Source of the DNA: an uncultured Candidatus Saccharibacteria bacterium
Lineage (GTDB): Bacteria > Patescibacteriota > Minisyncoccia > Phycocordibacterales > UBA9973
Assembly: GCA_964502615.1 (NCBI GenBank)
Contig: CAZCXF010000002.1
Span: 24,236-88,235, forward strand
Direction: 5' to 3'
Length of the DNA: 64,000 nt
Under the pieces are notes generated by a model. It worked only from the letters and a program-made list of their open reading frames with translations. It had not been told where the DNA came from and searched no databases. The position numbers and the translations under genes were made by a program. This document shows positions 11,406 through 63,278 of this stretch, one piece after another. Position 1 is the stretch's first letter; each line of letters opens with the position of its first letter.

Positions 11406-11407
11406 GC

Positions 11408-11965
11408 TTAGAATGATCCAGGACCGTACCCAAAAGACTTAGGGTTACCATTCTCTAGATTTTCAGCATAGACTCTATATGTGCTAGCTGTTACAGTACC
11501 TGGTCCTAATTGGTCATTTATATAAGACAATGCCCCAGGAGCTTGATAAACATAATCAAAATATCCTCTATACTTGTAATTTCCACTTGGATCATAACAA
11601 TTAGCTCCACAAGGATCTTTCGGTACTGTTTTCATATAAGGATTTAGAGCTGTTGTAAGAGTTGACCATGGTTTACCGTTACCACCATCAAATTCATTTG
11701 TAAAACATGTATTATCATATGCATCTGGATTATCGCAGTTTCCTGACTCGCCTAAATCAGGAGCATGGTTATTCCCCGCTATATAAAGCTCAATAGCTGT
11801 TCTTATTTCTTGAATATTTCTTATTCGCTTTGCATCTCTACCTTTAGCTCGAGCAGAACTTAGTGATGCTATTATGATCGTAGATAATACAGCTATTATT
11901 ACAATAGCTATTAGTAACTCAATAAGAGTAAATCCTCCCTTTATATTCTTTTTAGTCTTCTTCAT
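11408..11965 (-). CDS. Type IV pilin / pseudopilin-like protein with prepilin-type N-terminal methylation domain
   Basis: N-terminus KGGFTLIELLIAIVIIAVL (prepilin peptidase site G|FTLIE). It is a paralogue of 12026..12592 with near-identical blocks (SSARAKGRDAKR, PWSTLTTALNPYMKTVPKDPCG). Confidence 0.8.
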   Translation of the reverse strand: MKKTKKNIKGGFTLIELLIAIVIIAVLSTIIIASLSSARAKGRDAKRIRNIQEIRTAIELYIAGNNHAPDLGESGNCDNPDAYDNTCFTNEFDGGNGKPWSTLTTALNPYMKTVPKDPCGANCYDPSGNYKYRGYFDYVYQAPGALSYINDQLGPGTVTASTYRVYAENLENGNPKSFGYGPGSF

Positions 11966-12025
11966 AGAGAGAATTATAACAATTATGGTCTATGTTTGCC
12001 AACTAAAATTTTAGGTTAGATTTAG

Positions 12026-12592
12026 TTAAAATGACCCAGGACCGTATCCAAAGAACTTAGGGTTACCCTTTTCAAGATTTGTTGCAAATATCCTGTAAGT
12101 ATTAACGGTTACGGTTCCTGGTCCTATTTGGTCGTTTAAATAAGATAATGTTCCAGGCGCATGATATACGTATTCGAAATATCCTCTGTCGTTATAGTTT
12201 CCAGATGGATCGTAACATCCTACTCCACAAGGATCTTTCGGTACTGTTTTCATATAAGGATTTAGAGCTGTTGTAAGTGTTGACCATGGTTTACCTGTAC
12301 CTCCTCCATCCCATTCATTTGCAAAACAAGAAGGATCATATGCTTCTGGGTTTCCACAATTTGATGGATCACCTAAATCTGGTGCATGACCATTTCCTGC
12401 TATATATAACTCAATTGCAGTTCTAATCTCTTCAATATTTCTAACTCTCTTAGCGTCTCTGCCTTTAGCACGTGCAGAACTAAGAGCCGACAGTATTATT
12501 GCTGATAGTATTGCTATTATTGCAATTGCTATTAATAATTCAATAAGAGTAAATCCACCAACAAGATTCTTCTTTCTTAGCTTCTTTTTCAT
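12026..12592 (-). CDS. Type IV pilin / pseudopilin-like protein (tandem paralogue)
   Basis: N-terminus VGGFTLIELLIAIAIIAIL. Roughly 75-80% identical to 11408..11965. Confidence 0.8.
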   Translation of the reverse strand: MKKKLRKKNLVGGFTLIELLIAIAIIAILSAIILSALSSARAKGRDAKRVRNIEEIRTAIELYIAGNGHAPDLGDPSNCGNPEAYDPSCFANEWDGGGTGKPWSTLTTALNPYMKTVPKDPCGVGCYDPSGNYNDRGYFEYVYHAPGTLSYLNDQIGPGTVTVNTYRIFATNLEKGNPKFFGYGPGSF

Positions 12593-12645
12593 ACAGATAA
12601 TTATACCAACTATGGTTTATATTACCAATCTGTTAAAATGTCTTT

Positions 12646-12978
12646 ATGTTAATGAAAATTTTCTTTATAGGTAGGGCAATAAGAGAAGCCAAAAATAACC
12701 CATCAGGATTTGCTAGTTCAAATACCAAAGAGGCTTTATGGGGAATATTTTTAATTCCCATAATTATACTTGCACTAGGACTTATTTTTTTGTTTATTCT
12801 TTCCTTTACACATTTACTTGGTGGCCCGTATCTTTTCTTTAAAATTATATTTTTTATTGGCTTATTTTTTTCTTCAATATTTTTTGTGATAGTGTATAAG
12901 CTCATAAGTAAGATAGGGAATACGACCAAAAAAGTTGTTTCTAAAACAATAGAAAATGTAAGTAATAAAATACAATAA
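12646..12978 (+). CDS. Small hydrophobic membrane protein (uncertain; overlaps an equally long antisense ORF)
   Basis: Three predicted TM helices. The competing minus-strand ORF 12633..12995 would run through the terminator at 12984-13010. Confidence 0.25.
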   Translation: MLMKIFFIGRAIREAKNNPSGFASSNTKEALWGIFLIPIIILALGLIFLFILSFTHLLGGPYLFFKIIFFIGLFFSSIFFVIVYKLISKIGNTTKKVVSKTIENVSNKIQ

Positions 12979-12983
12979 AAAAT

Positions 12984-13010
12984 AGCGTACCCCATCCGGC
13001 GGTACGCTAT
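12984..13010 (-). terminator. GC-rich rho-independent terminator for the 13042..13911 gene
   Basis: TAGCGTACC-ccatccggc-GGTACGCTA, followed on the minus strand by ATTTTTTATT. Confidence 0.7.
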
Positions 13011-13041
13011 AACTGTATATATAACAGTCTATGAAAAGCTC

Positions 13042-13911
13042 TTAATCTCCACGGTTTGCAAAGGTGTATCCGACTGAAATACCCAGGAAGATGTTTTCGG
13101 TGCGTCCATTACGCTTGCCGATTAATCCTGAAGGAGTATTGTCGGAGTACTTGCTGCTTATCCTCGGCACTACACACTTTGCTTGTACGAAGAAGTTTTT
13201 AAATTTTGCAGAGACCAGACCGTAAATTTCCAACCGGGTATCTGTGATTCGGGTGTTGTAGTAGTGTCGGCCAGATATTTGCGGCTCACTGGTGTTGTAT
13301 ATCAGAGCTTTAAACCCAGCACCAACCCCGATTACATCTCCGAAAAACTTCTTGAACTCCAGCTGGGGAATAAAAACATTTTCAGACCATGCGCTGTCAT
13401 TATCACGGGGCAGGAAAGTGTATGTCAGGCTCAGTTCTGCATCGATACCAGACTCATCTCCTTCCAGGTTTCCCATGATTCTTGCTCCCCATAATACATC
13501 GTTGTCATTCTTTTTTCTCAGGCTGTCGGGCAACGGTTTGGGTGTGATCATTGCTGTCGGTCCGCCGCCTAAGTTCAGGTAGTAATGGCCGTCACGGAAG
13601 TTTCCTCTGTCATAGGTGAAAGTCTTGTGCAAGCCACCACCAACGGTAATGCTTGTCATTTTACGCAGGCCAGGATAAGATCCCTTTTTCAAAGGTTGTT
13701 CCCGGGAAAATCCGCAGATGAACCCGCCGTAGTAATCACGGAAGTCGATTTCTGCAGTTTTTCCTACATTGGTGGAATCCTTTTTTTCAAGGTTTACACC
13801 AACAGAAATTTTGCCGTAATACGGCGGGATTTCTTTCTCCGCTTTTTGTTTTTTCTGTGCGAATGCGCTGATAGATACCAGCGCAAGAATCGCGATCATG
13901 ATTTTTTTCAT
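13042..13911 (-). CDS. Exported outer-membrane beta-barrel-like protein with a Bacteroidetes-type signal peptide; gene has anomalously high GC (~45-50%)
   Basis: Signal peptide MKKIMIAILALVSISAFAQ. Alternating amphipathic beta-strand pattern with Gly/Tyr-rich turns and a C-terminal ...GYTFANRGD. Local GC is much higher than the flanks. Confidence 0.6.
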   Translation of the reverse strand: MKKIMIAILALVSISAFAQKKQKAEKEIPPYYGKISVGVNLEKKDSTNVGKTAEIDFRDYYGGFICGFSREQPLKKGSYPGLRKMTSITVGGGLHKTFTYDRGNFRDGHYYLNLGGGPTAMITPKPLPDSLRKKNDNDVLWGARIMGNLEGDESGIDAELSLTYTFLPRDNDSAWSENVFIPQLEFKKFFGDVIGVGAGFKALIYNTSEPQISGRHYYNTRITDTRLEIYGLVSAKFKNFFVQAKCVVPRISSKYSDNTPSGLIGKRNGRTENIFLGISVGYTFANRGD

Positions 13912-14099
13912 AAACTGTTTTTAATTGATTGTTTTTAAATGTAAATATTTAATTGAGTGTATTTCGTTTTTCCAACGATTTCTCGCGGGGAAGACGAAAG
14001 ACACTCGACAAATCAATGTTTTTTAAGGTGCTTTGATTGACCTCTTATTAACATATTGGAACGAAAAAGTCAAGGGGTTAGGTATATGGTAATCCATAC

Positions 14100-14126
14100 A
14101 AAAAAGCCCTTTTGAGGGCTGTTTTT
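14100..14126 (-). terminator. Rho-independent terminator downstream of the 14134..15690 gene
   Basis: AAAAAAGCCCTTTTGAGGGCTGTTTTTG hairpin. Confidence 0.7.
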
Positions 14127-14133
14127 GTAGAAT

Positions 14134-15690
14134 TTATTTGTTCTTTGTTATGTCGTTACCTGGGTAAGTGACAGTGTTTGGAGTGTTTGAGTAGTCTTTA
14201 CCTATCTGTTGTATATTTTTATTTTCAACATTTGCAAAGTTTCCTACATTTATTTCAGCTAATCTCTTTAGTCTTGCTTCTCCGTTTGCTATGTCTAGCT
14301 CTGTTTCAGTTATACTTTTCTTTAATTTTGTTAGATAACTCCTGTTATTATTACCTGCTTGGAGTTCTATTTGTTGGTCTTTTAGAATTTTATTTAGAAC
14401 TTTTATTTGTCTTGCTTGATTATCAATTTCTTGTTGTTGGTTTATTTCTTGGAATTTCTGTTCATAAGCCAATTTTATTTGGTCTATTGTGAGCTTATAA
14501 ATATGACCGCTTATCATTATTGTGAATTTCAAATCAAAATTTTTTTTCTTTGATAAACTATCTAGTGTTTCTAATTTTTCTTTTGATACACCTTGAAGTT
14601 CTTCATCAGTTATTATGTATGCTACTCCTTTTTCAGGACTTATATCTGCTTTTTCTAATGCTTGTATCGTCGCATCTATGGCAAGCTCTCTATCTTCGTT
14701 TATAAATTTCATTTCTCTTATAGTATTCGCTGCATCTTCTAGGTTTTTTGATACAAATGCAGTATCAGCTTTATTCGTATAACCTATAACAGAAGTTTCT
14801 AGATCCTCCTTTGTGTTATCAAGAAGATTTTTAATTAATTCCTTCTTATGAGATTCCATAGAAGGGCTTTTATCGACAAGAAGCATTACCTTTTTATAAC
14901 CATCAAAGTCGAACGGTTTACCACCTGTTTCTATTTTAATTATTGGAGGCACTTCTTCTTTAGTATTTTTATCAAACAATACAACCAAATCTAAGTTTAC
15001 AAAGCGCATAGTTTTATAAACTTCATGTAGTTTGTCTTTATTTTTCTGTAATTCATCCCATTCGTTATCTGTAAATGGTTTATTGGTTTCTGGGTTTAAT
15101 ACTTTGTGGTAATCAATAACTCCATTTTCTGGAATATTAAATTTTAGATTACTAAAGGTTTTTATTACGTCACTTATTTGTTTTGGAGTTAGGTCTGTTT
15201 TAGAAAAGTCAAATTTTGATAATATTTCCTTTATTACTCGCTGGGTTTCTTCAGCACGAGCACGAGCAAGGCCTAAGTTTCCATTTTCGTAAGAATTTGT
15301 GTTTCTAGGATCACAACTTACATTAAGTTCAGGAGTAGAATTTATAAATTTATCTACATTTTTTGAGTTTAAGTTATTTATGTAAGTTGATACAAGTTTT
15401 GATATTTCACCACCATTTTCTGCAGAAATTTCAGCTTTATCAGTTTCAAAATAATTTGCAATTTTTATTTCCACCTTTTCACTACTCTTGTTTATTAAAG
15501 CTTCCATTTTTTTAATATCATTTGCTCTAAGTGAGTCTGTAGGGTCACCCTTTTCTTTTGCATTTGCTGCAAGACCCATAGTAACCAAAGCGGCACCTAA
15601 TATTGCTTTCTTAAGCCCAGTGTTACTAGCTGTCTCTTCTTTTTTGTCCTCCTTTTTATTTTTAGGAGGGAAGTTAAAATTTAATTTCAT
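14134..15690 (-). CDS. Secreted/anchored vWA-domain protein with C-terminal coiled coil
   Basis: N-terminal signal/TM (AILGAALVTMGLAANA). MIDAS-like D-x-S-x-S motif (VMLLVDKSPSM). Long charged heptad-like C-terminal region. Confidence 0.5.
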   Translation of the reverse strand: MKLNFNFPPKNKKEDKKEETASNTGLKKAILGAALVTMGLAANAKEKGDPTDSLRANDIKKMEALINKSSEKVEIKIANYFETDKAEISAENGGEISKLVSTYINNLNSKNVDKFINSTPELNVSCDPRNTNSYENGNLGLARARAEETQRVIKEILSKFDFSKTDLTPKQISDVIKTFSNLKFNIPENGVIDYHKVLNPETNKPFTDNEWDELQKNKDKLHEVYKTMRFVNLDLVVLFDKNTKEEVPPIIKIETGGKPFDFDGYKKVMLLVDKSPSMESHKKELIKNLLDNTKEDLETSVIGYTNKADTAFVSKNLEDAANTIREMKFINEDRELAIDATIQALEKADISPEKGVAYIITDEELQGVSKEKLETLDSLSKKKNFDLKFTIMISGHIYKLTIDQIKLAYEQKFQEINQQQEIDNQARQIKVLNKILKDQQIELQAGNNNRSYLTKLKKSITETELDIANGEARLKRLAEINVGNFANVENKNIQQIGKDYSNTPNTVTYPGNDITKNK

Positions 15691-19148: not shown

Positions 19149-19700
19149 TTAATTAATTAATTTTACGTAAATATCATCAGTGTCAACTGCATTACATGCT
19201 CCTCCTAAGGTTGCGTTGTCAGTTGGATAATCTTGAACAGTATTCCTACCATAAGACACAACAACAGGGTAGCTTGCATCAATTGAGTTTTCGCAGATAT
19301 GATAGTCAGGGTCGAACACATAAGAAGTTCCCCATTGGTCTGTTGCAGATTCAGCATATGGTCCCTTCCATCTTGATATATCACCAGCGTTCCAACTGCA
19401 TGTTCCTGATGAGAAAATACTAGGTGCAGATATTATTCCAGAATTAGGGCTGGTTAGATTAACTTCAGGATTAGATGTCTGGTCTATAGGACAACCGTTT
19501 GGCCATTTTGAGGTATCATTTTCAAGCATTGTGATTGCGTTCCTTAAACTTTTTATTTCAAGAAGAGCTTTTACATTCTCAGCTTTTAGTTTAGCGTTAT
19601 TTAAAGAAATCATAATAACACTAGTAAGTATACCTATAATTGCAATAACAACTAGGAGTTCTAAAACAGTAAATCCACTATTTTTAGTTTTTGATATCAC
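19149..19700 (-). CDS. Type IV pilin-like protein (prepilin N-terminal domain)
   Basis: N-terminus NSGFTVLELLVVIAIIGILTSV. Confidence 0.75.
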   Translation of the reverse strand: MISKTKNSGFTVLELLVVIAIIGILTSVIMISLNNAKLKAENVKALLEIKSLRNAITMLENDTSKWPNGCPIDQTSNPEVNLTSPNSGIISAPSIFSSGTCSWNAGDISRWKGPYAESATDQWGTSYVFDPDYHICENSIDASYPVVVSYGRNTVQDYPTDNATLGGACNAVDTDDIYVKLIN

Positions 19701-39632: not shown

Positions 39633-41561
39633 TTGTGGTATAATAAACCCAATATGGCAGAAAATGAATATAGAAGTCGAATAGAAGATATCAAGCGCAG
39701 GCTTTACGATCGCGAAGATAAAGTCACTAATCGCCCTCATGAGGGTACTCTACATCCAGTTCCTCATCCTGTTCCTGATAGTTGGCATACTGATGCGGGC
39801 AAAACTGAAGGTGTAAAGTCTATAACACACATGAAAAAACCTAAAACATCAATGTTTAAGAAATTTTTCTTTGTTGCGTTAGTTTTTTTCATTGGAGCGA
39901 TACTCTTTTCTCTCTATATGTTTATAAATGGAGGAGTATCAGTTTCAAATGAAAATATCGATATTAAAGTTTTAGGTAATGCTTTTACAAAAGGTGGAGA
40001 TGAATTACCACTTCAGATTGAAATTACCAATCGCAACAATGCAAATCTTGAACTTGCTAATCTAATAGTTGAATATCCACGTGGTGCAAGTGATAATCCA
40101 AATGATATGGTGAGACTTCCTCGTGAAAATATTGGAGTCATTAAAAAAGGCTCAAGTGTCACTATAAACAAAAAAGTCACCCTTTTCGGTGAAGAAAAAT
40201 CAATTCGTAATATTAAGGTAACTCTTGAATATCATCCTGAAGGCTCCAATGCAATTTTTGCAAAGGAAAAAGACTATCCAGTTTCTATAAGCTCTGCACC
40301 TCTCTCTCTTCTGATAGATGCACCAGATACAGCAACATCTGATCAGGTTGTATCGTTTAAGATTACTGCAACACTAAACACAAGCCTTCCAGAGGGGGCA
40401 ACAATGCTTCAAGTTACATACCCTAACAACTTTGCTTTTGAAAGTGCAGTGCCAAAACCATCTTTTGGTAATACGATTTGGAATCTTGATGGTCTAACGC
40501 AAACTAAACCTATATCTATAGAAATAAAAGGACGTCTCATTGGCCAAGATGGAGATGAACAAGTTTTCCACGTTTATGCAGGTACTACAAGTCCAAATGA
40601 CCAATCTGTTGTGAATGTCGTTTATAACTCACTTCTAAAGACAATTGCTATTACTAAACCATTCCTTGAGGCACGTATTCTTGTAGGAGGGCAAGATTTA
40701 CCTTCCTATACAGCTTCTGGTGGTGATCAAGTAGATGGTGAAATTGCTTGGTCAAACAATCTTCAAACTCGTATTACTGATGCTCAAATAATATTAGGGT
40801 TCTCTGGAAATGTTTTTGATAAGAGCGAAGTAAATCCACTTGAAGGTTTTTATGATTCAGCAAATAATCAAATAATTTGGGATAAAAATACTATTCCAGA
40901 GCTTGCTTCTGTCGAACCGGGAGCAAATGGGGTAGTAGGTTTTAATTTTAAACCCCTATCTTTGGTTGGTGCTCGTACGATTATAAAAGAACCGCAAGTT
41001 GTTCTACAGGTGAGTATTCGTGGCAAACAACCTTCTGAAGGTTCTACGCTTAGTAATGTAAATGACTTTACAAAAAAGATTGTAAAGCTAACTTCAGATT
41101 TACAGATTGCATCATCTGCAGCGTCTCTCTCAGGTCCTATACCACCTAAAGCTGAAAATGAAACTCGTTATAACGTTACTTGGACGCTTTCTAATTCATC
41201 TAATACTGTAAATCAAGCACAGGCTCGTTCGGCATTACCAATATATATAAAATGGGTTGGTGCAGTTGGTGATGGCAAAGAGAAAGTTTCGTACAATGAG
41301 ACAACTCATGAGGTGCTCTGGGATATAGGTACAGTGAGACCTAATACTGGTACAGATTCAAGCAGGGAAGTAACATTTACTTTGTCTCTTTCTCCTTCGA
41401 GTTCTCAAGTTGGAAGCGTGCCACAACTCATGAAAGATGTATATCTTTCTGGTACTGACGCGTTTACGAATACTACAGTTAAGAGTAAACGTGGACCGAT
41501 TACGACACTTCTTAGAGATGACCCAAACTTTAAACCTGGGCAAGAACGTGTTATACAATAG
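39633..41561 (+). CDS. Large membrane-anchored surface protein (N-terminal cytoplasmic His/Pro-rich segment, one TM, ~540-aa beta-rich ectodomain), hypothetical
   Basis: TM helix FFFVALVFFIGAILFSLYMFI. No recognisable catalytic motifs. Confidence 0.5.
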   Translation: MWYNKPNMAENEYRSRIEDIKRRLYDREDKVTNRPHEGTLHPVPHPVPDSWHTDAGKTEGVKSITHMKKPKTSMFKKFFFVALVFFIGAILFSLYMFINGGVSVSNENIDIKVLGNAFTKGGDELPLQIEITNRNNANLELANLIVEYPRGASDNPNDMVRLPRENIGVIKKGSSVTINKKVTLFGEEKSIRNIKVTLEYHPEGSNAIFAKEKDYPVSISSAPLSLLIDAPDTATSDQVVSFKITATLNTSLPEGATMLQVTYPNNFAFESAVPKPSFGNTIWNLDGLTQTKPISIEIKGRLIGQDGDEQVFHVYAGTTSPNDQSVVNVVYNSLLKTIAITKPFLEARILVGGQDLPSYTASGGDQVDGEIAWSNNLQTRITDAQIILGFSGNVFDKSEVNPLEGFYDSANNQIIWDKNTIPELASVEPGANGVVGFNFKPLSLVGARTIIKEPQVVLQVSIRGKQPSEGSTLSNVNDFTKKIVKLTSDLQIASSAASLSGPIPPKAENETRYNVTWTLSNSSNTVNQAQARSALPIYIKWVGAVGDGKEKVSYNETTHEVLWDIGTVRPNTGTDSSREVTFTLSLSPSSSQVGSVPQLMKDVYLSGTDAFTNTTVKSKRGPITTLLRDDPNFKPGQERVIQ

Positions 41562-47524: not shown

Positions 47525-47589
47525 TTAGTTTATCAACATTTTTCGGTAAAAAACGATACAATTGTATCGTTTTTTAGGTTATAATATGG

Positions 47590-50500
47590 TTGTATATTGG
47601 GCTTTTTGCATCCAGTTATTTCATGATAAACAAGAAATTTAAAAAAATTATTTCAAGCATTTACTCAAAGATTATATTATCTATTTTCCTTGTTATTTTT
47701 GTGTCTCCACATACTGTTTTAGCTGCAAACCCACTTTCTAATTTTGGTCACTCTCTTTGGGATGTATACAACAATTATATTGTCCAACCTCTAAGTAAAG
47801 GCGTTTCACTTTTCTTTATCGAATATCCAGTAAAAAGCGATCCTGTTTTTATTGTTCGTACCTCACCTCAACCAAAAAAGAATAATTCTGAGACAGAAAA
47901 AGTAAATTACATAAGCGGTGCAAATTCTGTTACATATATTACAAACAATTATCCAACGACTACTATTTACCAGAATACTTCAAGTGGTGGAGGAGGTGGT
48001 GGAAATGTTGATACATCGCTTTTTGTTGAAAAAAGTTTATACAATGGACAAATTTTAACCATTTTTGATCGAATAGGAAAAAGTATAAGTAATTTAGCGA
48101 CCACACTGAAGGAAAGTATTACCACAAGTACACTAAATATAACTGGTAATGCAACAATCGGAGGAAATCTGACCATTACTGGCAACATTATTGGAAACGT
48201 AGTTGGAACTATCAATCCATCTTTTACCCTAGGTTCTGTTCCATTTCAAGGAGCAACTGGACTTTCGCAAGATAACTCAAATTTCTTTTGGGACGTTACA
48301 AATCATAGGCTTGGAATTGGAACGAATACTCCAACAACTGCGCTTGATGTGGTAGGCAGTGGTAATATAAATGCTATAAACGGGCTCATTCAGTTAGGAG
48401 ATTTTACTGAAATGAGTGGTGCAACATGGTTTAAGATAGATGATGGTAGCACAACGATAAGAGCAAAAGCGGCAAGCGGAATTATATTTAATAATAATTT
48501 GTCAATTGGAAAAAATGCTGCTCCATCAGTAGCTTTAGATGTAGTAGGAGATATTTCGTCATTAACATCAAGTGGTACAGCGGGTATTAATACTCAAACA
48601 GATATTACTGATATAGGAGATTGGCAAAGCAATGGTAATGGAACCAAAGTTTCGGTTAATAATTCATCAAATAGGATTTCATTATCTTCAGCAGATGTAA
48701 GGGTAAGTAGCTTATCTGGCACAGGAACCCGTGCTGTTGTTGCGGATGCAAGCGGAATTCTTTCTACGTCAGGTTCTATACCCACAAGCCTCACACAAGG
48801 TTCAGTTGTCTTCGCTGGAAGTGGAGGTGTACTCTCACAAGATAACGCGAATGTTTATTTTGATGATACAGCAAATGAATTTCGTATAGGTTCAAATACG
48901 GATTTAGGTACATACTCTCTACAAGTTACGGGTGGTATTCGTGTGGACGGAACTGCAGCTAATGAAGTTCAATTTACTGGGAATAATTCTTTTAATCCTG
49001 GTTTTGTATTTAATGGATCAAGTAGTAATACTCATATGTACACTTTTGATTCTCAGAACCTTTCTACTAGTACTGGTGGGCAAACTGTATTTACAAATTC
49101 ATTTTTACAATTGAGTGGCACTTCATATATACAGCCATACCAACAAAATCTTAGAGTGATCAGAACTTATCCTGGAACTGGCACAGCTAATACTTTAGAG
49201 GTAGATAATACAACAGAAAATGCTGTACCAGGTACATACCGAATAGCATTATTTAAACTTTCAGGGGTGGATAAAGCTTTTATAGATCAAACAGGAGGTG
49301 CTTGGTTTAATGGCAACGTAGGTGTGGGTACGAGTGGTCCAAACTATAAATTAGAAGTTATTGGTACATTTCGTACTTCAGGCAACGCATTGTTTGGTAC
49401 AAACACATCTTCTGGAACAACAACGCCCGAAAATATCTCTCTTGGTGGTACGTACGGAAGTAACACTGCGGGAAATGTAGGAAATTTAAAAATTGATTTA
49501 TATAACGATGGGACTTCCAACAGATCTGGATTTGGTATTTCAGCAAACAAATTGGAATATCAAACACCAACAAGTACAGTACATGCTTTTTATGTCGGAG
49601 GTAATTTAATTCAAAGTATTGACGATAATTCAGTGCTCATAAAATCAGGATTATTTTCAACATCTACTTATGCTCAGAGAATCGGTAACTTGTTAACTCA
49701 AAATTATCAATCTAACAATACAACTATTGTTGATAATGCTTACTATAATGGTACCTCTTGGACTAGACTTGCAACTGGTTATGCATCCGGAATACAAATG
49801 TACAACGGTCATTTGATGATGGTTGCAGGTGCAACTGGTACTGGAACCTTTACCCCAACATATCCATTTAAAGCAAATTCTGCAGGTACAGTTGGTATCG
49901 GGGGAGATGGTGGAAACGTTGCGAATACGTTTACGGGCAACACATTGGTTGCCACTTCATCTGGAGTTGGAATTACTACAACTGTTTCAACTGGAACTGG
50001 TTCAACTGCTGGAGTACAAATACTTGCAAATAGTTTAACTACAGGTAATGGACTTGAAGTCAGTAGTTCGTCTGTAACTACAGGTAATCTTGTTTCGTTA
50101 TCTTCAACTTCAACATCTGCTGCAAGTAACACGCAAACAGTTTTAAATGTTTCGACAAGTGGTGCTAATCCTATAAACCAAACAACCTACGGTGGATATT
50201 TTAGTAATACTCACACAGGAACCAATTCTGTAAATACCGCTATTTATGCAACTGCTTCAGGTGGTTCTAGTAACTATGCGGCAAATTTTGGAGCAGCTCT
50301 TCTAATGAGTGCTACCACACCTTGTATTTCTTTCCAGCTAGGAACTTGTGCAAGTAGTGATAACTTTATCAATAGAAATGGAACAGTTGTAACAGTGCAA
50401 GGTTCAGGAGGGACAACACTTTCAGTCGGTGGAACTGCATATTTAGATGCTGTGACAAGTAAAGTCAGAATGTTTTCAGCAGGATCTGGTGAGGTTCAGA

Positions 50501-51924
50501 TAGATACAAACGTAGATGCAGGTGCGTATGCCCTTCAAGTAGTGGGTAATGAATATTTTGCCATGTCATCAAATACTGCTCTTGGTTTCAATGCAAACGA
50601 TGGCACCAATAACTATTTAGTTATAAATACCCAAACTGGTACTAGTGCAATATCACGATTCACTTTATCTGGAACAGCACCTACTATTGCATCGGCTGCT
50701 GGAACTCAATTTATTAATAATACCGAAACTCCTGGTACCTATAATGTCACAGGTACAACAAACATTACTGGTACTGGTACTTCTTCAAATATAGGCTCAC
50801 TTTATAATCAGTTGACTATAAATGGCAATAATACCTTAACTGTTTCTGAATCTTCGAATTTACTGATTAATGGTGCAGTAAAAGCATCCTCATCTTCTGG
50901 AACTTTAACTATTACCAACTCGTATGGATTAAATATTTTAGCTGGCTCTGCTCTTAATGGAACAAATGGTGTTGTTACAAACGGATATGGTCTTTCTGTA
51001 AACGCCCCAACAGGTGCAACAAACAATTACTCAGCCGTATTTAGCGGAGGTAATGTTGGAATTAAAAATACAGCTCCAGGTTTTGCGCTACATGTCGGCT
51101 CTTCTGCTATTACCGATGCCACAACTCTTATTCGTCTTGAAGACGCGAACTCAACTTGTGATTTCAATGCAAACGCAGGTGGTCCAACTTGTGGATCTGA
51201 TATAACGCTTAAGAAAGATATAACTTCTCTAGATACCGTTGACCTTCTCACAAAGATCGCAGCTCTAAATCCAGTCTCATATAGATGGCTTACTCAAGGG
51301 GAGATGGATCCACTACAATATGGATTTATCGCTCAAGAAGTTGAAGCGCAATTCCCGGATTTGGTTAGTGAACATAAATGGATTGATGGCTCAAATAAAA
51401 AATTCTTAAACATGAGCGGTCTCGTACCTTACGCAATAGGCGCGATAAAAGAACTAAATATAAAAATCCAAGGTTTTTCATCACTCGATACATCTAATAC
51501 TAACTCGGTTGGTTATCTTATGAAAAATTTCTTGGCTGATATAAGTAACAGTGTAGTTGATCTTTATGCAAAAGTTATTCACTCAGATAAATCAGTTACA
51601 AAGCAATTGTGTGTTGCAGATGATAGCGGGGCTGAAACTTGTATCACTAAAGCCCAATTGGATAACCTATTACAGAATCAAATAACTAATGGCGGTAATG
51701 GTGGGGGAGGTAATCCACCTATAAATCCACCAACAGATATTTGTCCAAACATCGACGGAGATCAAAGTGCTTTGCCTGAGGGAATGCATCTAGACGAGAG
51801 TTATAACTGCGTAGCTGATAACAATACTACTCCACCGACGAATGATAATACAGGAAATACAAACAATGGAACCCCTCCAAGCGATAGCGCAACTCCTCCA
51901 CCAGGCGATCAACCACAACCTTAA
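47590..51924 (+). CDS. Giant (1444 aa) secreted Gly/Thr/Ser/Asn-rich fibre-like protein with a C-terminal peptidase-S74 intramolecular chaperone (tailspike/endosialidase-type autoprocessing) domain and a Pro/Thr-rich tail
   Basis: Signal peptide (ILSIFLVIFVSPHTVLA|ANP). About 1100 aa of low-complexity beta-rich repeats (LGIGTNTP, NVGIKNTAPG-type motifs). Near the C-terminus, GSDITLKKDITSLDTVDLLTKIAALNPVSYRWL...YGFIAQEVEAQFPDLV...LVPYAIGAIKELNIKIQ matches the S-D-x-x-L-K...SYxxK...GFIAQEV...LV...AIKEL consensus of the chaperone-of-endosialidase domain. Confidence 0.7.
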   Translation: MYIGLFASSYFMINKKFKKIISSIYSKIILSIFLVIFVSPHTVLAANPLSNFGHSLWDVYNNYIVQPLSKGVSLFFIEYPVKSDPVFIVRTSPQPKKNNSETEKVNYISGANSVTYITNNYPTTTIYQNTSSGGGGGGNVDTSLFVEKSLYNGQILTIFDRIGKSISNLATTLKESITTSTLNITGNATIGGNLTITGNIIGNVVGTINPSFTLGSVPFQGATGLSQDNSNFFWDVTNHRLGIGTNTPTTALDVVGSGNINAINGLIQLGDFTEMSGATWFKIDDGSTTIRAKAASGIIFNNNLSIGKNAAPSVALDVVGDISSLTSSGTAGINTQTDITDIGDWQSNGNGTKVSVNNSSNRISLSSADVRVSSLSGTGTRAVVADASGILSTSGSIPTSLTQGSVVFAGSGGVLSQDNANVYFDDTANEFRIGSNTDLGTYSLQVTGGIRVDGTAANEVQFTGNNSFNPGFVFNGSSSNTHMYTFDSQNLSTSTGGQTVFTNSFLQLSGTSYIQPYQQNLRVIRTYPGTGTANTLEVDNTTENAVPGTYRIALFKLSGVDKAFIDQTGGAWFNGNVGVGTSGPNYKLEVIGTFRTSGNALFGTNTSSGTTTPENISLGGTYGSNTAGNVGNLKIDLYNDGTSNRSGFGISANKLEYQTPTSTVHAFYVGGNLIQSIDDNSVLIKSGLFSTSTYAQRIGNLLTQNYQSNNTTIVDNAYYNGTSWTRLATGYASGIQMYNGHLMMVAGATGTGTFTPTYPFKANSAGTVGIGGDGGNVANTFTGNTLVATSSGVGITTTVSTGTGSTAGVQILANSLTTGNGLEVSSSSVTTGNLVSLSSTSTSAASNTQTVLNVSTSGANPINQTTYGGYFSNTHTGTNSVNTAIYATASGGSSNYAANFGAALLMSATTPCISFQLGTCASSDNFINRNGTVVTVQGSGGTTLSVGGTAYLDAVTSKVRMFSAGSGEVQIDTNVDAGAYALQVVGNEYFAMSSNTALGFNANDGTNNYLVINTQTGTSAISRFTLSGTAPTIASAAGTQFINNTETPGTYNVTGTTNITGTGTSSNIGSLYNQLTINGNNTLTVSESSNLLINGAVKASSSSGTLTITNSYGLNILAGSALNGTNGVVTNGYGLSVNAPTGATNNYSAVFSGGNVGIKNTAPGFALHVGSSAITDATTLIRLEDANSTCDFNANAGGPTCGSDITLKKDITSLDTVDLLTKIAALNPVSYRWLTQGEMDPLQYGFIAQEVEAQFPDLVSEHKWIDGSNKKFLNMSGLVPYAIGAIKELNIKIQGFSSLDTSNTNSVGYLMKNFLADISNSVVDLYAKVIHSDKSVTKQLCVADDSGAETCITKAQLDNLLQNQITNGGNGGGGNPPINPPTDICPNIDGDQSALPEGMHLDESYNCVADNNTTPPTNDNTGNTNNGTPPSDSATPPPGDQPQP

Positions 51925-53449: not shown

Positions 53450-54607
53450 ATGAAAAAGAATTTTTTCTCCCTGGTTGCTACCTTTGTAGCTGTAACAATT
53501 TTTTCCTTAACAAGTTGCAAAAAATGCCCCTTGGAAGGAGATGGTAGTGGCAACAACAAGACCCAAAAAGTTATCATCAGTCCGTCTCCGAATACTCCGG
53601 TGGCAGGATATGTAACTGTGAACAATACCGCCAACACAAATGGAATAGTGCTTTTAAGATTCAACGAAAAAGTAACTTCCAAAGACGGTGTAAACAAAAA
53701 AATACCAATCCACATTTCCTCACAGGGTGCAACTGTCTCAAAGATTGTGAATATTGTAAAGTTGTACCGCGGCCCGAATCTTATTGATGCGATAGATGGT
53801 TCTCTGGGATACGCAATCGCAACTGATGGCAGTATTACCAATAACCCGGTTCCAACAACTGGTTCAAACGAGACTGGCTACATCTTCAACAACATATCTT
53901 CGCCATCTGGAAACATTTTGGCGGACTCAACAGTTGAGTTTACAATTGTTGTGGATGTTAAATCAGCAAACGGCAATTATCCGGATTTAAGCAGCCTAAA
54001 GGTTTCAATTGCAAATCCTGACGTATTATTACCAGCAAACCTATCCATATTGAATAATAATGGAGATCAAATACCCGCTGGTCCTAATTACCGCTCTGGT
54101 GAAGCAATCGGTTTCAGCCAAACTTTACAGTTGAATTGTTTACAAGTAATCATGGGAACTTCAACTTACACCAACACTGTTGATGTAAGTGGAAATATAA
54201 CATCTGTTACGTACACCATACCTATTACTGTAACTACTTGTAATACGATTTATATTGGTCAATCTGCTCAATATAATTCTGTAACAACCGGGACAAATTC
54301 CTTTTCATTTGCATTCAATAATTCAGCAGCGCCAACAGTAGATGATTTGTCCTGTGGTGAAAATCACACACTCTCATCATCTGATGCTGTTATTCAGGGC
54401 TCAGCCTTCCGCCTTGATGCTGGTACAACAAAGCATTTTCAATTAACTGTTGTTTTAAGCACTCCATCCGTGTTGAACAGTCAATACAGAGTGCATTTAA
54501 AGCAATTAAAGACATTTACAGATGGTCTTTTGACAACAGGCGCAGTATCTGTGAATCTTATTCCAGCTTCAAGTTTCCAGACCGAATACCGGCTGATCAA
54601 TAATTAA
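53450..54607 (+). CDS. Exported lipoprotein (lipobox LTSC), beta-rich, hypothetical; gene has elevated GC (~42-45%)
   Basis: MKKNFFSLVATFVAVTIFSLTSCKK gives a signal peptidase II site. A Thr/Asn/Ser-rich beta domain follows. GC is higher than in the adjacent rpsR and rsuA-like genes. Confidence 0.55.
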   Translation: MKKNFFSLVATFVAVTIFSLTSCKKCPLEGDGSGNNKTQKVIISPSPNTPVAGYVTVNNTANTNGIVLLRFNEKVTSKDGVNKKIPIHISSQGATVSKIVNIVKLYRGPNLIDAIDGSLGYAIATDGSITNNPVPTTGSNETGYIFNNISSPSGNILADSTVEFTIVVDVKSANGNYPDLSSLKVSIANPDVLLPANLSILNNNGDQIPAGPNYRSGEAIGFSQTLQLNCLQVIMGTSTYTNTVDVSGNITSVTYTIPITVTTCNTIYIGQSAQYNSVTTGTNSFSFAFNNSAAPTVDDLSCGENHTLSSSDAVIQGSAFRLDAGTTKHFQLTVVLSTPSVLNSQYRVHLKQLKTFTDGLLTTGAVSVNLIPASSFQTEYRLINN

Positions 54608-60708: not shown

Positions 60709-62058
60709 ATGAGTAAATTTTATAGATATGTTTTTAGTAGTGTTTTTGTATTTACTTTGGCTTTATCATACGGATTAGTCCAAGCTGGTGGTCCAACAAC
60801 TAATCCACCTCCTACTGCATATGCTGGTCCTGATCAAACAATAACATTACCAACTTCTAGTGTTACTTTGAGTGGTAGCGGAACTGCGGGGGTAGTAAGT
60901 TATACATGGGATGTCGTATCTGGATCTGGAAATATTGTTTCGAGAGGTTCTCAAACAACTCAGGTTACAAATCTTACAGCTGGAACTTCAATTTTCAGAC
61001 TTACTGTAACTGATAGTTTTGGTCAGATTGGTACTGACGATGTAAGTATAATTGTTAACTCTGGTGGAATGGGAGGTACTGGTGGTGCTACTGCATATGC
61101 TGGTCCTGATCAAACACTACCTGCACTTACTACTAGAACAACTGTTTCTGGTAGTTCAACAGGCATTTCTGGTTTTGTTATATATTATTCTTGGACTAAA
61201 CTCTCAGGTTCTGGAACAATAGTTTCCCCAACACAAGCTACAACTGATATTACAAACCTTGACGTCGGTTCTTCTACTTTTCGATTTACTGCTACTAATA
61301 ATACTGGAGAGACTGCGTTTGATGATGTAGATATTGTAGTTCTACCAGCTGGTCCACAACCTACAAATATGCCTCCTACTGCATATGCTGGTCCTGATCA
61401 AATACTTACATCTCCAGCATCATCAACAACATTATCTGGAAGTGGGGTGGATAGTGATGGTACTATTGCTTCTTATAATTGGACTAAAATTTCTGGATCA
61501 GGTTTTATAAGCCCAGGTACTGGTTCTAGTAATGGTTCAGTTGTAGCTATAACTGGTTTAACTGTTGGGACATCAGTATTTCGATTAACTGTTACTGATA
61601 ATCTTGGAGCAACTGGATATGATGATTTAAATGTTGTTGTTAATCCAGCAGGTACAGGTGGGGGAGGAACTGGAGGAGGAGGTACGGGCGGTACAGGTGG
61701 AGGTAGTGGTTCTGGAGGTACTGGAAGTGGAAGTGGTGGCGCAGGTGGGGGAGGAATGATTTGTCCATTTGGAACTATTGGTACACCTGCTACTTGTGTA
61801 TTAATAAATATTCCTCAAAATGGTGTTAGAAGAAATAGCGGTCTTGCAGCCATTAAAGATTTCCAAAGATTTTTAAATTGGACTCTAGGTAATAAAATTG
61901 TTCCTCTTGCAATAGATGGTAGATGGGGTGCTAAAACAACAGCAGTTATCAAACTATATCAAAGACTGAATGGTTTGAAAGTTGATGGATCATTTGGAAA
62001 GTTTAGCGCTGGTAAAGCTATAACAATACTAAAGAACGCTAATTTATACAGACAATAA
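60709..62058 (+). CDS. Secreted protein with three PKD-like repeats (A-Y-A-G-P-D-Q-T), a Gly-rich linker and a C-terminal peptidoglycan-binding (PG_binding_1-like) domain
   Basis: Signal peptide, then a repeated PTAYAGPDQT..LSGSG...F.D..DI.V module three times. GGTGGGGTGG linker. C-terminal DGRWGAKTTAVIKLYQRLNGLKVDGSFG. Confidence 0.65.
   Translation: MSKFYRYVFSSVFVFTLALSYGLVQAGGPTTNPPPTAYAGPDQTITLPTSSVTLSGSGTAGVVSYTWDVVSGSGNIVSRGSQTTQVTNLTAGTSIFRLTVTDSFGQIGTDDVSIIVNSGGMGGTGGATAYAGPDQTLPALTTRTTVSGSSTGISGFVIYYSWTKLSGSGTIVSPTQATTDITNLDVGSSTFRFTATNNTGETAFDDVDIVVLPAGPQPTNMPPTAYAGPDQILTSPASSTTLSGSGVDSDGTIASYNWTKISGSGFISPGTGSSNGSVVAITGLTVGTSVFRLTVTDNLGATGYDDLNVVVNPAGTGGGGTGGGGTGGTGGGSGSGGTGSGSGGAGGGGMICPFGTIGTPATCVLINIPQNGVRRNSGLAAIKDFQRFLNWTLGNKIVPLAIDGRWGAKTTAVIKLYQRLNGLKVDGSFGKFSAGKAITILKNANLYRQ
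60800..61640 (+). repeat. Three tandem ~283-bp intragenic repeats (PKD-like modules)
   Basis: CCTACTGCATATGCTGGTCCTGATCAAA recurs at about 60814, 61095 and 61378. Confidence 0.7.
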
Positions 62059-62594: not shown

Positions 62595-63278
62595 ATGATT
62601 CATCTAAAACCTGAAGAACTAGAAAATTTATTCATAGAATTAATTGAAAACGCCACCCAACTTCTCAAAACATCAGTTAGTGTATCAGGTACAGATGAAA
62701 AACATATCGCCTTAGCTCTTGCAGAACTTGCGCTCGAAGAAATCGGAAAATCTTTCACTTGTCTTGCGTATTATGCCGTAGCAGATTCTGTTACAGATTG
62801 GACAGCTTTTTGGAAGGATTGGAAAGACCACAAAGTCAAAGCCCATAGAGCTTTCTTGTATGAATTTATTTCTACAGTACGAGTAGAATTAAAAGACAAG
62901 CCAGATTATTTTCCTTCAAAAAGAGTGACGATTCCGCTTGAAAAAGAAGTCAGTTTTTATGTGGATTTTGATAAAACAAAAAGAGAGATAATTATTCCTA
63001 AAGCAGTAATTGATAACACAGAGATATTCTCAAGGATTACTTCGTTATTTGGCGTACTTAATGCAGCTATGCTGATTAGAGATTTATTGAAAACTAAAAA
63101 AGAAGACTACAAAAAAGCTGTCTCTGAATATGCTTTTATGGTTATGACTACAGGCATTACACAAAAAGAAGCAGAAGAATTCCTAATGAATTCTGAAGAT
63201 GGAACTAAAGAGCATAATAATGCTTTTAATGATATATTAAAACTATTGAAAGCTCGAGTTGAAGATAAAGAAATTTAA
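62595..63278 (+). CDS. Hypothetical alpha-helical protein (possible HEPN/Abi-like; weak)
   Basis: ORF preceded by a 490-bp non-coding gap and followed by a terminator and two tRNAs. No firm motif match. Confidence 0.45.
   Translation: MIHLKPEELENLFIELIENATQLLKTSVSVSGTDEKHIALALAELALEEIGKSFTCLAYYAVADSVTDWTAFWKDWKDHKVKAHRAFLYEFISTVRVELKDKPDYFPSKRVTIPLEKEVSFYVDFDKTKREIIIPKAVIDNTEIFSRITSLFGVLNAAMLIRDLLKTKKEDYKKAVSEYAFMVMTTGITQKEAEEFLMNSEDGTKEHNNAFNDILKLLKARVEDKEI

What the first reader, a model, noticed from the sequence alone, without database searches (positions are those of the whole stretch)
47590..51924. 1444-aa surface fibre with phage-tailspike-type self-cleaving chaperone domain
The largest gene in the window encodes a signal-peptide protein of ~1100 aa Gly/Thr/Ser/Asn-rich beta-repeat sequence. 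It is followed by a clear peptidase-S74 intramolecular chaperone domain (GSDITLKKDI...NPVSYRWL...GFIAQEVEAQFPDLV...AIKELNIKIQ) and a Pro/Thr-rich tail. This domain normally mediates trimerisation and is auto-excised from phage tail fibres and endosialidases. Here there are no flanking phage genes (tatD upstream, rpsF downstream). The protein therefore looks like a cellular trimeric adhesin/fibre, plausibly for attachment to a host or partner cell.
Basis: partly seen in the sequence, partly recalled or inferred. Interest (0 to 1): 0.55.

Follow-up and report, generated by a model that had tools for sequence, protein, structure and literature searches.

The report
Self-cleaving surface fibre of a Patescibacterium
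The largest gene in this window encodes a secreted, probably three-stranded cell-surface fibre of an ultra-small (Patescibacteria) bacterium, built like a phage tail fibre with a self-removing folding cap; it lies among housekeeping genes and evolves by swapping modules, which makes it a good candidate for recognising host cells.

Summary
The gene (best start ATG 47623, stop 51924; 1433 aa rather than 1444) encodes a Sec signal peptide, about 1150 aa of Thr/Gly/Ser/Asn-rich shaft, a true Peptidase_S74 intramolecular-chaperone domain (Pfam 56.5 bits, Ser1192/Lys1197 dyad, fold match to MyRF ICA and the endoNF chaperone) and a Pro-rich tail. It is chromosomal, not phage. All 64 kb is housekeeping. 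Two related Minisyncoccia (Patescibacteria) genomes carry an orthologue in the same tatD|fibre|rpsF slot. Flanking proteins are 79-86% identical, whereas the fibre keeps only its two ends and exchanges internal blocks. The closest described analogue is the Bdellovibrio MAT (mosaic adhesive trimer) fibre family, whose capping-loop motif occurs four times here. New detail: the S74 core is followed by a conserved extension of about 90 aa. This extension was found in about 1600 protein clusters, almost all from Patescibacteria among named genomes, and was not detected in viral contigs. Trimer formation, self-cleavage and host adhesion are inferred, not shown. Verdict: a new member of a known kind, of moderate interest.

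The parts
47548..47585 (+). Intergenic signals: a perfect 28-nt palindrome AAAAAACGATACAATTGTATCGTTTTTT (47548-47575, terminator-like, after tatD), followed by TATAAT (47580-47585)
   Evidence: Read directly from the sequence. The consensus scan gave a weaker promoter-like site at 47533-47562. Function not shown.
47623..51924 (+). Fibre gene, 1433 aa plus stop (the mechanical ORF begins at TTG 47590)
   Evidence: The ATG start is supported by the orthologue N-termini.
47623..47724 (+). Sec-type signal peptide, aa 1-34, predicted cleavage VLA|AN
   Evidence: Sequence features. It is the only hydrophobic 19-mer peak. There is no lipobox Cys.
47725..48372 (+). Conserved N-terminal (cell-proximal) region, aa 35-250: a short post-signal segment, a Pro-rich linker, a Gly6 linker, a predicted helical neck and the first beta-rich unit
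   Evidence: 45-49% identity to the orthologues P0001 and P0002. The first ~140 aa were found only in close relatives.
48310..48351 (+). Capping-loop motif copy 1 (LGIGTNTPTTALDV). Further copies lie at 48499-48540, 49318-49359 and 51055-51096.
   Evidence: Regex matches at aa 230, 293, 566 and 1145. The motif fits the MAT/S74 consensus V-G-G/N-pi-x-x-P-x-x-x-L (PMC10769870).
48646..49974 (+). Middle shaft block aa 342-784, shared with orthologue P0001 (52% overall, 80% over aa 559-784) but absent from orthologue P0002
49975..51048 (+). Distal shaft/tip block aa 785-1142, essentially unique (only about 34% identity to one giant Patescibacteria fibre). It is the candidate ligand-binding region exposed after cap removal.
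   Evidence: Coverage map and hit list. The binding role is an inference.
51157..51192 (+). Cys1179-x10-Cys1190 loop immediately before the cleavage site. It is one of four closely spaced Cys pairs (901/909, 1179/1190, 1330/1340, 1374/1396).
   Evidence: The pre-Ser Cys pair is conserved in most relatives.
51196..51366 (+). Peptidase_S74 core (aa 1192-1248). Catalytic Ser1192 is at 51196-51198 and Lys1197 at 51211-51213. The predicted scissile bond is Gly1191|Ser1192.
   Evidence: Pfam. S, D and K are invariant in 17 relatives. The profile aligns to 8jov, 6f45, 7dc3, 8hqz and 3gud. Fold matches.
51421..51681 (+). Post-S74 extension aa 1267-1353: the end of the long S74 helix, a second helix (..LMKNFLADISN..), then a Cys-bridged hairpin plus helix (LCV..G..TCITKAQLDNLL)
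   Evidence: Alignment A3. The AF2 model gives helices 1264-1286 and 1296-1310, a hairpin 1328-1342 and a helix 1343-1351, with lower confidence than the core. Distribution.
51703..51921 (+). Low-complexity Pro/Asn/Gly/Thr/Asp-rich C-terminal tail aa 1361-1433, containing a small Cys module (CPNIDGDQSALPEGMHLDESYNC)
   Evidence: The same Cys module occurs in P0005 and, in related form, in P0004.

Best explanation
The gene encodes a chromosomally encoded, Sec-exported surface fibre of a Patescibacteria (class Minisyncoccia-like) cell. After export and removal of the 34-aa signal peptide, three chains are expected to fold into an intertwined, beta-rich fibre. Folding would be nucleated from the C-terminus by the S74 intramolecular chaperone domain. 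Once the trimer is formed, the Ser1192/Lys1197 dyad would cut the Gly1191|Ser1192 bond. That releases a 242-aa C-terminal fragment (S74 core, lineage-specific extension and Pro-rich tail) and exposes the distal tip of a mature chain of about 1157 aa. The conserved N-terminal ~215 aa would hold the fibre at the cell surface, and the fast-changing distal two thirds would bind a ligand on a host or partner cell. The fibre works like a phage receptor-binding protein, or a Bdellovibrio MAT fibre, mounted on a cell. Shown here: gene structure, signal peptide features, S74 membership by sequence and fold, an intact dyad, non-phage conserved synteny, mosaic evolution, and multi-copy occurrence of the family across Patescibacteria. 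Inferred: trimerisation, self-cleavage, orientation on the cell, and adhesion to a host.
For: S74 domain: Pfam gives 56.5 bits against a cut-off of 22. Ser1192, Asp1193 and Lys1197 are invariant across 17 relatives. The profile hits solved S74 chaperones (8jov 3e-15, 6f45 2e-13, MyRF 7dc3 1e-10, T5 pb1 8hqz 2e-6, GA-1 3gud 2e-5), with SDxxxK aligned. The AF2 model has core pLDDT above 90. It matches 7dc3 (E 2e-5, TM 0.61 on the target) and 3gw6, and 281 viral tail-fibre models.

Secretion: the signal peptide is the only hydrophobic segment, and there are four local Cys pairs.

Cellular origin: the ORFs scanned with Pfam across the 64 kb are housekeeping, transport or pilin genes, or have no Pfam match; none is a phage structural gene. 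Orthologues occupy the same tatD|fibre|rpsF-ssb-rpsR slot in an 840-kb Minisyncoccia contig and in a second contig. Phage collections match only the S74 part, at 31-39% identity.

Diversifying, modular evolution: flanking proteins are 79-86% identical, but the fibre shares only its N-terminus (45-49%) and C-terminus (36-66%) with the orthologues. Internal blocks are shared in incongruent pairs.

Family behaviour: the related genome has at least three S74 fibres, next to rpoBC-dnaG and next to truB.

Precedent: Bdellovibrio MAT fibres have a signal peptide, about 1000 aa, the same loop motif and an S74 end. Bd3182 self-cleaves at S782, and the family shows surface location and tip swapping (PMC10769870). 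There is a weak direct profile match to the Bd3182 tip, 8ojn (E 0.003).
Against: There is no experimental or omics evidence for expression, processing, trimer formation or localisation. No trimer model could be computed. The single-chain model of the middle block was unusable (pLDDT 35). No recognised ligand-binding or enzymatic domain was found in the shaft. The N-terminal region is unlike a defined anchoring domain and occurs only in close relatives, so the attachment mechanism is unknown. The host of this organism is unknown. Hypervariability could equally reflect escape from phages or predators that use the fibre as a receptor.
Confidence: 0.65

Rival explanations
1. It is a phage tail fibre: part of a prophage, a prophage remnant or a tailocin-like element.
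For: The S74 domain is typical of phage tail fibres and tailspikes. 281 viral structure models match the C-terminal model, and NCBI names relatives 'tail fiber domain-containing protein'.
Against: No phage gene lies within about 47 kb upstream or 12 kb downstream. The same housekeeping slot is occupied in two related genomes. Of 50,697 phage genomes, only one distinct phage (Achromobacter phage Motura) matches, and only over aa 1168-1281 at 33%. There is no close relative in IMG/VR. The post-S74 extension was not found in viral contigs. The protein has a Sec signal peptide, which virion fibres assembled in the cytoplasm do not need.
Confidence: 0.03
2. It is a surface fibre, but not primarily an adhesin. 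One option is a tailspike-like enzyme that degrades a host capsule or cell-wall polymer. Another is a protective or spacing coat whose variability reflects escape from phages and predators that use it as a receptor.
For: Many S74-capped phage proteins are depolymerases, for example endosialidase (general knowledge; 3gw6 match). Mosaic, fast evolution is also expected for a phage receptor under escape selection.
Against: No glycosidase, lyase or other catalytic family was detected in the shaft. The closest cellular precedent, the MAT fibres, bind prey glycans (PMC10769870). Neither point is decisive.
Confidence: 0.2
3. The S74 domain is not auto-excised here. The unusually long C-terminal region (242 aa against about 100-160 in phage versions) stays attached as a permanent cap or functional distal module.
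For: The region after the Ser is long and carries conserved extra modules, with a median of 223 aa in the family. Such conservation hints at a function beyond transient folding help.
Against: The Ser-Asp-x3-Lys motif is intact here. It is kept in 115 of 132 family representatives, which is hard to explain without catalysis. Bd3182, with the same motif, self-cleaves.
Confidence: 0.1

Closest known systems
Bdellovibrio bacteriovorus MAT (mosaic adhesive trimer) fibres, S74 subgroup, e.g. Bd3182 (Caulton et al. 2024, PMC10769870)
   Same: Both are cellular (non-phage) proteins of about 1000 aa or more with an N-terminal signal peptide. Both have a beta-rich shaft carrying the V-G-G/N-pi-x-x-P-x-x-x-L capping-loop motif (four copies here), a C-terminal S74 domain with SDxxxK, several copies per genome, and evolution by module or tip swapping. 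Both occur in organisms that live on other cells. There is a weak direct profile match to the Bd3182 tip structure 8ojn (E 0.003).
   Different: The phylum and envelope differ (Patescibacteria rather than a diderm predator). The N-terminal region is short, linker-rich and lineage-restricted, rather than the conserved ~130-aa beta-rich MAT domain; this could not be compared directly. The S74 core is followed by a conserved extension of about 90 aa and a Pro-rich tail, which that paper does not describe. No Patescibacteria appear in the passages of its supplementary table of MAT-like proteins returned by term searches.
Phage tail fibres and tailspikes with a C-terminal intramolecular chaperone (endosialidase endoNF 3GW6, T5 L-shaped fibre pb1 8HQZ/4UW8, GA-1 neck appendage 3GUD, T4-like gp37 6F45)
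   Same: They share the same S74 domain by sequence profile and fold, the same Ser/Lys dyad position, and placement at the C-terminus of a long beta-rich fibre.
   Different: This protein is exported by a signal peptide, is encoded among housekeeping genes and has no virion attachment domain. The shaft has no detectable phage relative. The released C-terminal part is about 242 aa, against roughly 100-160 aa in the shorter phage-like versions (96-112 aa after the Ser in P0040, P0042 and P0043).
MyRF (myelin regulatory factor) ICA domain, 7DC3
   Same: It is the best structural match of the C-terminal model (E 2e-5, rmsd 3.5 A over 114 columns). It is also a cellular use of S74 and also carries the upstream loop motif.
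   Different: In MyRF the cleavage frees a transcription factor from a membrane anchor. Here there is no C-terminal membrane segment and no DNA-binding domain.

Membership tests
Peptidase S74 / intramolecular chaperone auto-processing domain (Pfam PF13884) | Sequence match to the family model above the curated threshold | tested here: met
   56.5 bits against a gathering score of 22, E 3.5e-15, profile positions 1-57 of 58.
Peptidase S74 / intramolecular chaperone auto-processing domain (Pfam PF13884) | Catalytic Ser-Lys dyad in the S-D-x-x-x-K arrangement, aligned with characterised members | tested here: met
   Ser1192, Asp1193 and Lys1197 are invariant in 17 relatives. They align with the SDxxxK of 8jov and 6f45 and the equivalent positions of MyRF and T5 pb1.
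Peptidase S74 / intramolecular chaperone auto-processing domain (Pfam PF13884) | Characteristic fold (small beta unit plus a long C-terminal helix) | tested here: met
   In the AF2 model, blocks covering model residues 51-130 have pLDDT 86-95. Foldseek matches 7dc3 at E 2e-5 and 3gw6 at probability 0.96-1.0. 281 viral models match at E<=1e-3.
Peptidase S74 / intramolecular chaperone auto-processing domain (Pfam PF13884) | Autoproteolytic release after trimer formation | not testable with these tools
   This needs expression of wild type and S1192A, or proteomics. No multimer prediction was available.
MAT (mosaic adhesive trimer) fibres of Bdellovibrio and other bacteria | Signal peptide followed by a long beta-rich fibre with capping loops V-G-G/N-pi-x-x-P-x-x-x-L | tested here: met
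   The signal peptide is aa 1-34. Four loop motifs lie at aa 230, 293, 566 and 1145. The motif definition is from PMC10769870.
MAT (mosaic adhesive trimer) fibres of Bdellovibrio and other bacteria | Conserved ~130-aa beta-rich N-terminal domain directly after the signal peptide | tested here: inconclusive
   No MAT N-domain sequence or structure was available for comparison; PDB holds only the tips. Here aa 35-175 is short segments plus linkers and was found only in close relatives, so it is probably not the same domain.
MAT (mosaic adhesive trimer) fibres of Bdellovibrio and other bacteria | Multi-copy family with exchangeable modules or tips | tested here: met
   There are at least 3 copies in the syntenic Minisyncoccia genome. 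Blocks are shared incongruently among three orthologues. Only one copy lies in this 64-kb window.
MAT (mosaic adhesive trimer) fibres of Bdellovibrio and other bacteria | Surface display and binding of prey or host surface ligands | not testable with these tools
   This requires microscopy or binding assays.
Prophage-encoded tail fibre | Location within a block of phage structural, lysis or integration genes | tested here: not met
   The neighbours are aminoacyl-tRNA synthetases, M16 peptidase, an AI-2E transporter, TatD, S6, SSB, S18 and RNase J. The synteny is conserved in two related genomes.

The most novel reading that the evidence does not exclude
S74-capped, cassette-shuffled fibres with a Patescibacteria-specific post-S74 module could be the general host-range determinants of these ultra-small episymbionts. 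They form a family of about 1600 clusters at 50% identity, with several copies per sub-megabase genome, often placed beside core genes. On this reading they are cell-mounted equivalents of phage receptor-binding proteins. The conserved extension released with the cap would then have a function of its own, for example export or quality control, or retention at the envelope.
Probability: 0.3. Interest if true: 0.7.

Novelty: new member of a known kind. Interest (0 to 1): 0.4.

Why it matters
How Patescibacteria (CPR bacteria) find and hold on to specific host cells is largely unknown. Published work points to type IV pili and unspecified large adhesins (PMC10633639, PMC11623550 and PMC13059738). 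A phage-like, self-processing fibre that is conserved in position but shuffled in its distal parts is a concrete, testable candidate for a host-specificity determinant. The S74 Ser-to-Ala test is simple. The family signature defined here (S74 core plus extension) could be used to catalogue such fibres across the phylum and to compare fibre variants with host associations. In kind, however, S74-capped cellular fibres are already known from Bdellovibrio, and relatives are already labelled 'tail fiber domain-containing protein' in public annotations.

Tried and rejected
1. Direct phmmer of the whole protein against PDB sequences gave no hit at E<=1. Only the profile of C-terminal domains worked.
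2. PHROGs gave only a weak hit to an unknown-function family over the S74 region. NCBIfam gave nothing.
3. The broad C-terminal alignments A1 and A2 were too diverse for locus scans. The narrower A3 worked.
4. A structure prediction of the middle block (aa 563-783, 3-sequence alignment) gave pLDDT 35, which is unusable, so no fold search was run on it.
5. A homologue search with the middle block returned nothing at E<=1e-3. An iterative HMM search among the proteins already fetched recovered only P0001.
6. The N-terminal search found only short fragments and the widespread 'GS.PFQG..GL..DN.NFFWD...RLGIGT' unit. It gave no basis for a model of the anchoring region.
7. The AFDB fold library was unavailable.
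8. The prophage idea was rejected on context and synteny.
9. The idea of a true tandem-repeat protein was rejected.
10. A search for a second S74 or fibre paralogue in the window found none.
11. A C-terminal membrane anchor or sortase signal was looked for. There is no hydrophobic segment, and no LPXTG was seen on reading the tail.
12. Literature searches linking S74, endosialidase or tail fibre to Patescibacteria found nothing relevant.


Full report
**1. What is in the sequence**

The ORF 47590..51924 on the + strand is real and is the longest in the window. The mechanical ORF starts at a TTG. Eleven codons later there is an ATG (47623) that opens MINKKFKKIISSIYSKIILSIFLVIFVSPHTVLA|ANP. This is a lysine-rich n-region, a hydrophobic core and a small-residue cleavage motif.

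Both syntenic orthologues start at the equivalent Met, so I take 47623 as the start (1433 aa). This is the only hydrophobic stretch in the protein.

Eight cysteines form four closely spaced pairs: 901/909, 1179/1190, 1330/1340 and 1374/1396. That fits an exported protein.

Residues 251-1140 are 50% Thr, Gly, Ser and Asn. There is no true repeat. Tandem Repeats Finder and a protein self-comparison find nothing substantial. Only a short motif, [LV]G[IV]G..xP...L.V, recurs, at aa 230, 293, 566 and 1145.

**2. The S74 domain**

- Pfam Peptidase_S74 matches aa 1192-1248 at 56.5 bits (cut-off 22, E 3.5e-15).
- In an alignment of 17 C-terminal regions from relatives, Ser1192, Asp1193, Lys1197 and the G-x-I-A-Q motif are invariant.
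- A profile of that alignment hits solved S74 chaperones with the SDxxxK motif in register: a tail fibre (8jov, 3e-15), T4-like gp37 (6f45, 2e-13), MyRF ICA (7dc3, 1e-10), T5 pb1 (8hqz, 2e-6) and the GA-1 neck appendage (3gud, 2e-5).
- An AlphaFold2 model of aa 1142-1358 has mean pLDDT 73, with the S74 core above 90.
- Foldseek places the model with MyRF ICA (E 2e-5, rmsd 3.5 A over 114 columns) and the endoNF intramolecular chaperone 3gw6. It also matches 281 predicted viral tail-fibre structures.

Membership in S74 is therefore met by sequence, catalytic motif and fold. Autoproteolysis itself cannot be tested here. In Bd3182 the mature fibre ends at A781 and the catalytic Ser is 782 (PMC10769870). 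By analogy, the cut should fall between Gly1191 and Ser1192. That would leave a mature chain of about 1157 aa (aa 35-1191) and release 242 aa.

**3. It is a cellular gene, not a phage gene**

The window is a typical small-genome bacterial chromosome at about 35% GC. It carries eight tRNAs, aminoacyl-tRNA synthetases, RecO, an M16 peptidase, an AI-2E transporter, TatD, S6-SSB-S18, RNase J, thymidylate and folate enzymes, and pilin-like genes. No phage structural, lysis or integration gene appeared in the ORFs scanned.

The two best homologues lie in the same slot...M16 - AI-2E - MetRS - TatD | fibre | S6 - SSB - S18... One is on an 840-kb contig of a 'Minisyncoccia bacterium' MAG and the other on a second metagenomic contig. 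Minisyncoccia is a class of Minisyncoccota, that is, Patescibacteria/CPR.

The flanking proteins are 79-86% identical to those of the window; AI-2E is 64-66% and M16 is 74-76%. The organisms are therefore close relatives.

A much more distant genome (flanks 33-56% identical) keeps a fibre gene inside the same cluster, but between AI-2E and MetRS (L102).

Phage collections give almost nothing:
- tblastn against 50,697 phage genomes finds one distinct phage, and only aa 1168-1281 at 33%.
- IMG/VR has no close relative of the whole protein.
- With a family alignment, IMG/VR matches are almost entirely confined to the S74 core, at 31-46% identity.

**4. Mosaic, fast evolution**

Against the two orthologues the fibre keeps its N-terminal ~250 aa (45-49% identity) and its C-terminal ~220 aa (66% to one, 36% to the other). 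The interior is exchanged in blocks:
- Window aa 342-784 matches P0001 (52% overall, 80% over aa 559-784) but not P0002.
- P0001 and P0002 share their first ~540 aa at 69%. The stretch beyond the N-terminal ~250-300 aa of that region has no counterpart in the window.
- Window aa 785-1142 has essentially no close relative.

A coverage map over 112 related proteins shows the minimum at aa 600-1075. A gene this variable between genomes whose neighbouring genes are about 80-85% identical points to recombination and diversifying selection on the distal shaft. That is the pattern expected of a receptor-binding protein, though also of a phage receptor under escape selection.

**5. The wider family**

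A conserved module follows the S74 core (aa 1267-1353). It comprises the end of the long helix, a second helix (..SLGSLIKxFLADxxN..LYA..) and a Cys-bridged hairpin plus helix (LCV..G..CITKxQLxxLL).

A scan of 185,579 species-representative genomes with this module returned 80 loci. Almost all that carry a taxon name are Patescibacteria: Minisyncoccia, Paceibacterota, and Saccharibacteria-, Nomura-, Adler-, Yonath-, Shapiro-, Magasanik-, Uhr- and Gracilibacteria-labelled MAGs. Several records are titled only 'bacterium'. Three loci come from the syntenic 840-kb genome.

The six alpha- or gammaproteobacterial hits are small proteins of 189-357 aa that match only the last ~30-40 residues.

In 47 of the 80 loci an S74 core lies immediately upstream.

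An exhaustive profile search of 1.84 billion cluster representatives found 1607 proteins at E<=1e-3 and 446 at E<=1e-10. Among the best 144 new representatives listed:
- 111 of 116 with enough upstream sequence have the S74 core.
- 115 of 132 keep S[DSN]xxxK.
- The median distance from the Ser to the C-terminus is 223 aa.
- 72 of 88 full-length-looking proteins have a signal-peptide-like N-terminus by a crude rule.

The module was not found in viral contigs, although those scans are pattern-prefiltered.

The other two fibres of the related genome lie next to rpoB-rpoC-dnaG (more than 3420 aa) and between a beta-CASP RNase and truB (972 aa). Again there are no phage genes.

**6. Closest known system**

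The profile search also touched two Bdellovibrio structures, 8ojn and 8ond. These belong to the MAT (mosaic adhesive trimer) fibres (PMC10769870). The main features of that family are:
- There are 21 proteins in strain HD100, 13 of them ending in S74 with SDxxxK.
- Each has a signal peptide, a conserved N-terminal domain and a length of about 1000 aa.
- They carry capping loops with the consensus V-G-G/N-pi-x-x-P-x-x-x-L.
- Bd3182 self-cleaves at S782.
- They are displayed on the surface, bind glycans, and evolve by swapping tips.

The window protein shares the signal peptide, the loop motif, the S74 end and the modular, multi-copy behaviour. It differs in phylum, in its N-terminal region and in the extended C-terminus. 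The passages of that paper's supplementary table of MAT-like proteins returned by my term searches list other predators and Omnitrophica, and 'Patescibacteria' and 'Parcubacteria' gave no hits in the supplement.

I found no paper connecting S74 or tail-fibre-like proteins to Patescibacteria. NCBI already names relatives 'tail fiber domain-containing protein'.

**7. Mechanism and confidence**

The most likely sequence of events is as follows:
1. Sec export and signal-peptide removal.
2. C-terminus-nucleated trimer folding, assisted by the S74 domain.
3. Ser1192/Lys1197-catalysed release of the 242-aa cap.
4. A long fibre held at the cell by its conserved N-terminal part, presenting a variable distal part to a host or partner cell.

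If the fibre is as extended as the Bd3182 model (about 550 A for a 922-aa precursor), simple scaling suggests several tens of nanometres. That is only an inference.

I am confident that this is a secreted, chromosomal, S74-capped fibre of a known general kind (about 0.85). I am much less sure that its role is host adhesion (about 0.5). Rivals are a depolymerase-like or protective fibre, a permanently capped fibre, and, nearly excluded, a prophage fibre.

**8. Verdict**

The gene is a new member, in Patescibacteria, of the known class of S74-capped cellular fibres, with a lineage-specific C-terminal extension worth noting. It is of moderate interest, chiefly as a testable candidate for host recognition in an obscure phylum.

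Noticed in passing
window 34245-37823 (+): The isoleucyl-tRNA synthetase-like gene (1192 aa) carries a histidine-phosphatase domain (His_Phos_1, E 1.5e-35) at aa 539-703. It lies between the two halves of the class I catalytic core. This is an unusual insertion or fusion.
   Followed up: no
window 10080-15690 (-) and 19149-19700 (-): Three pilin-like genes with the N-terminal methylation motif lie at 11408-11965, 12026-12592 and 19149-19700. Next to them are several unannotated genes with secreted or membrane-protein features. Together they look like a probable type IV pilus/pseudopilin cluster, the other known host-interaction apparatus of Patescibacteria.
   Followed up: partly
window 53450-54607 (+); L001 15415-18324: Directly after rpsR there is a 385-aa lipoprotein-like gene (signal ending LTSC) with no Pfam match. 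In the syntenic related genome the same slot holds a 969-aa protein. This looks like a second variable surface-protein slot, flanking the S6-SSB-S18 operon.
   Followed up: no
L102 6761-10342: A distant Patescibacteria genome keeps the M16 - AI-2E - MetRS - TatD - S6 - SSB - S18 cluster. It carries a 1187-aa fibre with a partial S74 core and the extension, located between AI-2E and MetRS instead of between TatD and S6.
   Followed up: partly
L119 746-1156 = window 47929-48339: A 1674-bp contig from JGI metagenome 3300045397 is 100% identical to 411 bp of the fibre's N-terminal region. Identity stops at window position 48339, within the first capping-loop motif, and the contig's flanks are unrelated. 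This is either an assembly chimera at a shared module or a real module junction. It also points to a sample that contains this organism or this module.
   Followed up: partly
window 51703-51921; P0003, P0004, P0005 tails: The tails after the S74 extension carry small Cys-bounded modules, for example CPNIDGDQSALPEGMHLDESYNC, nearly identical in P0005. Other fibres carry C..Q.L....C repeats embedded in Pro-rich linkers. Their role is unknown.
   Followed up: no
L075, L088, L094, L095, L098, L106: Small (189-357 aa) proteins of Alpha- and Gammaproteobacteria MAGs, most with signal-peptide-like N-termini, match only the last ~30-40 residues of the extension (the LCV..C.T..QL..LL hairpin-helix). 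This mini-module therefore also exists outside fibres and outside Patescibacteria.
   Followed up: no
window 60709-62058 (+) and 62595-63278 (+): A protein with three PKD domains and a peptidoglycan-binding domain lies at 60709-62058, and a HEPN_AbiV (abortive-infection-type) gene at 62595-63278.
   Followed up: no
window 39633-41561 (+): A 642-aa protein with no Pfam match is conserved in position in the related genome, where it is 636 aa and also without a Pfam match. It lies between recO and a class II aminoacyl-tRNA synthetase.
   Followed up: no
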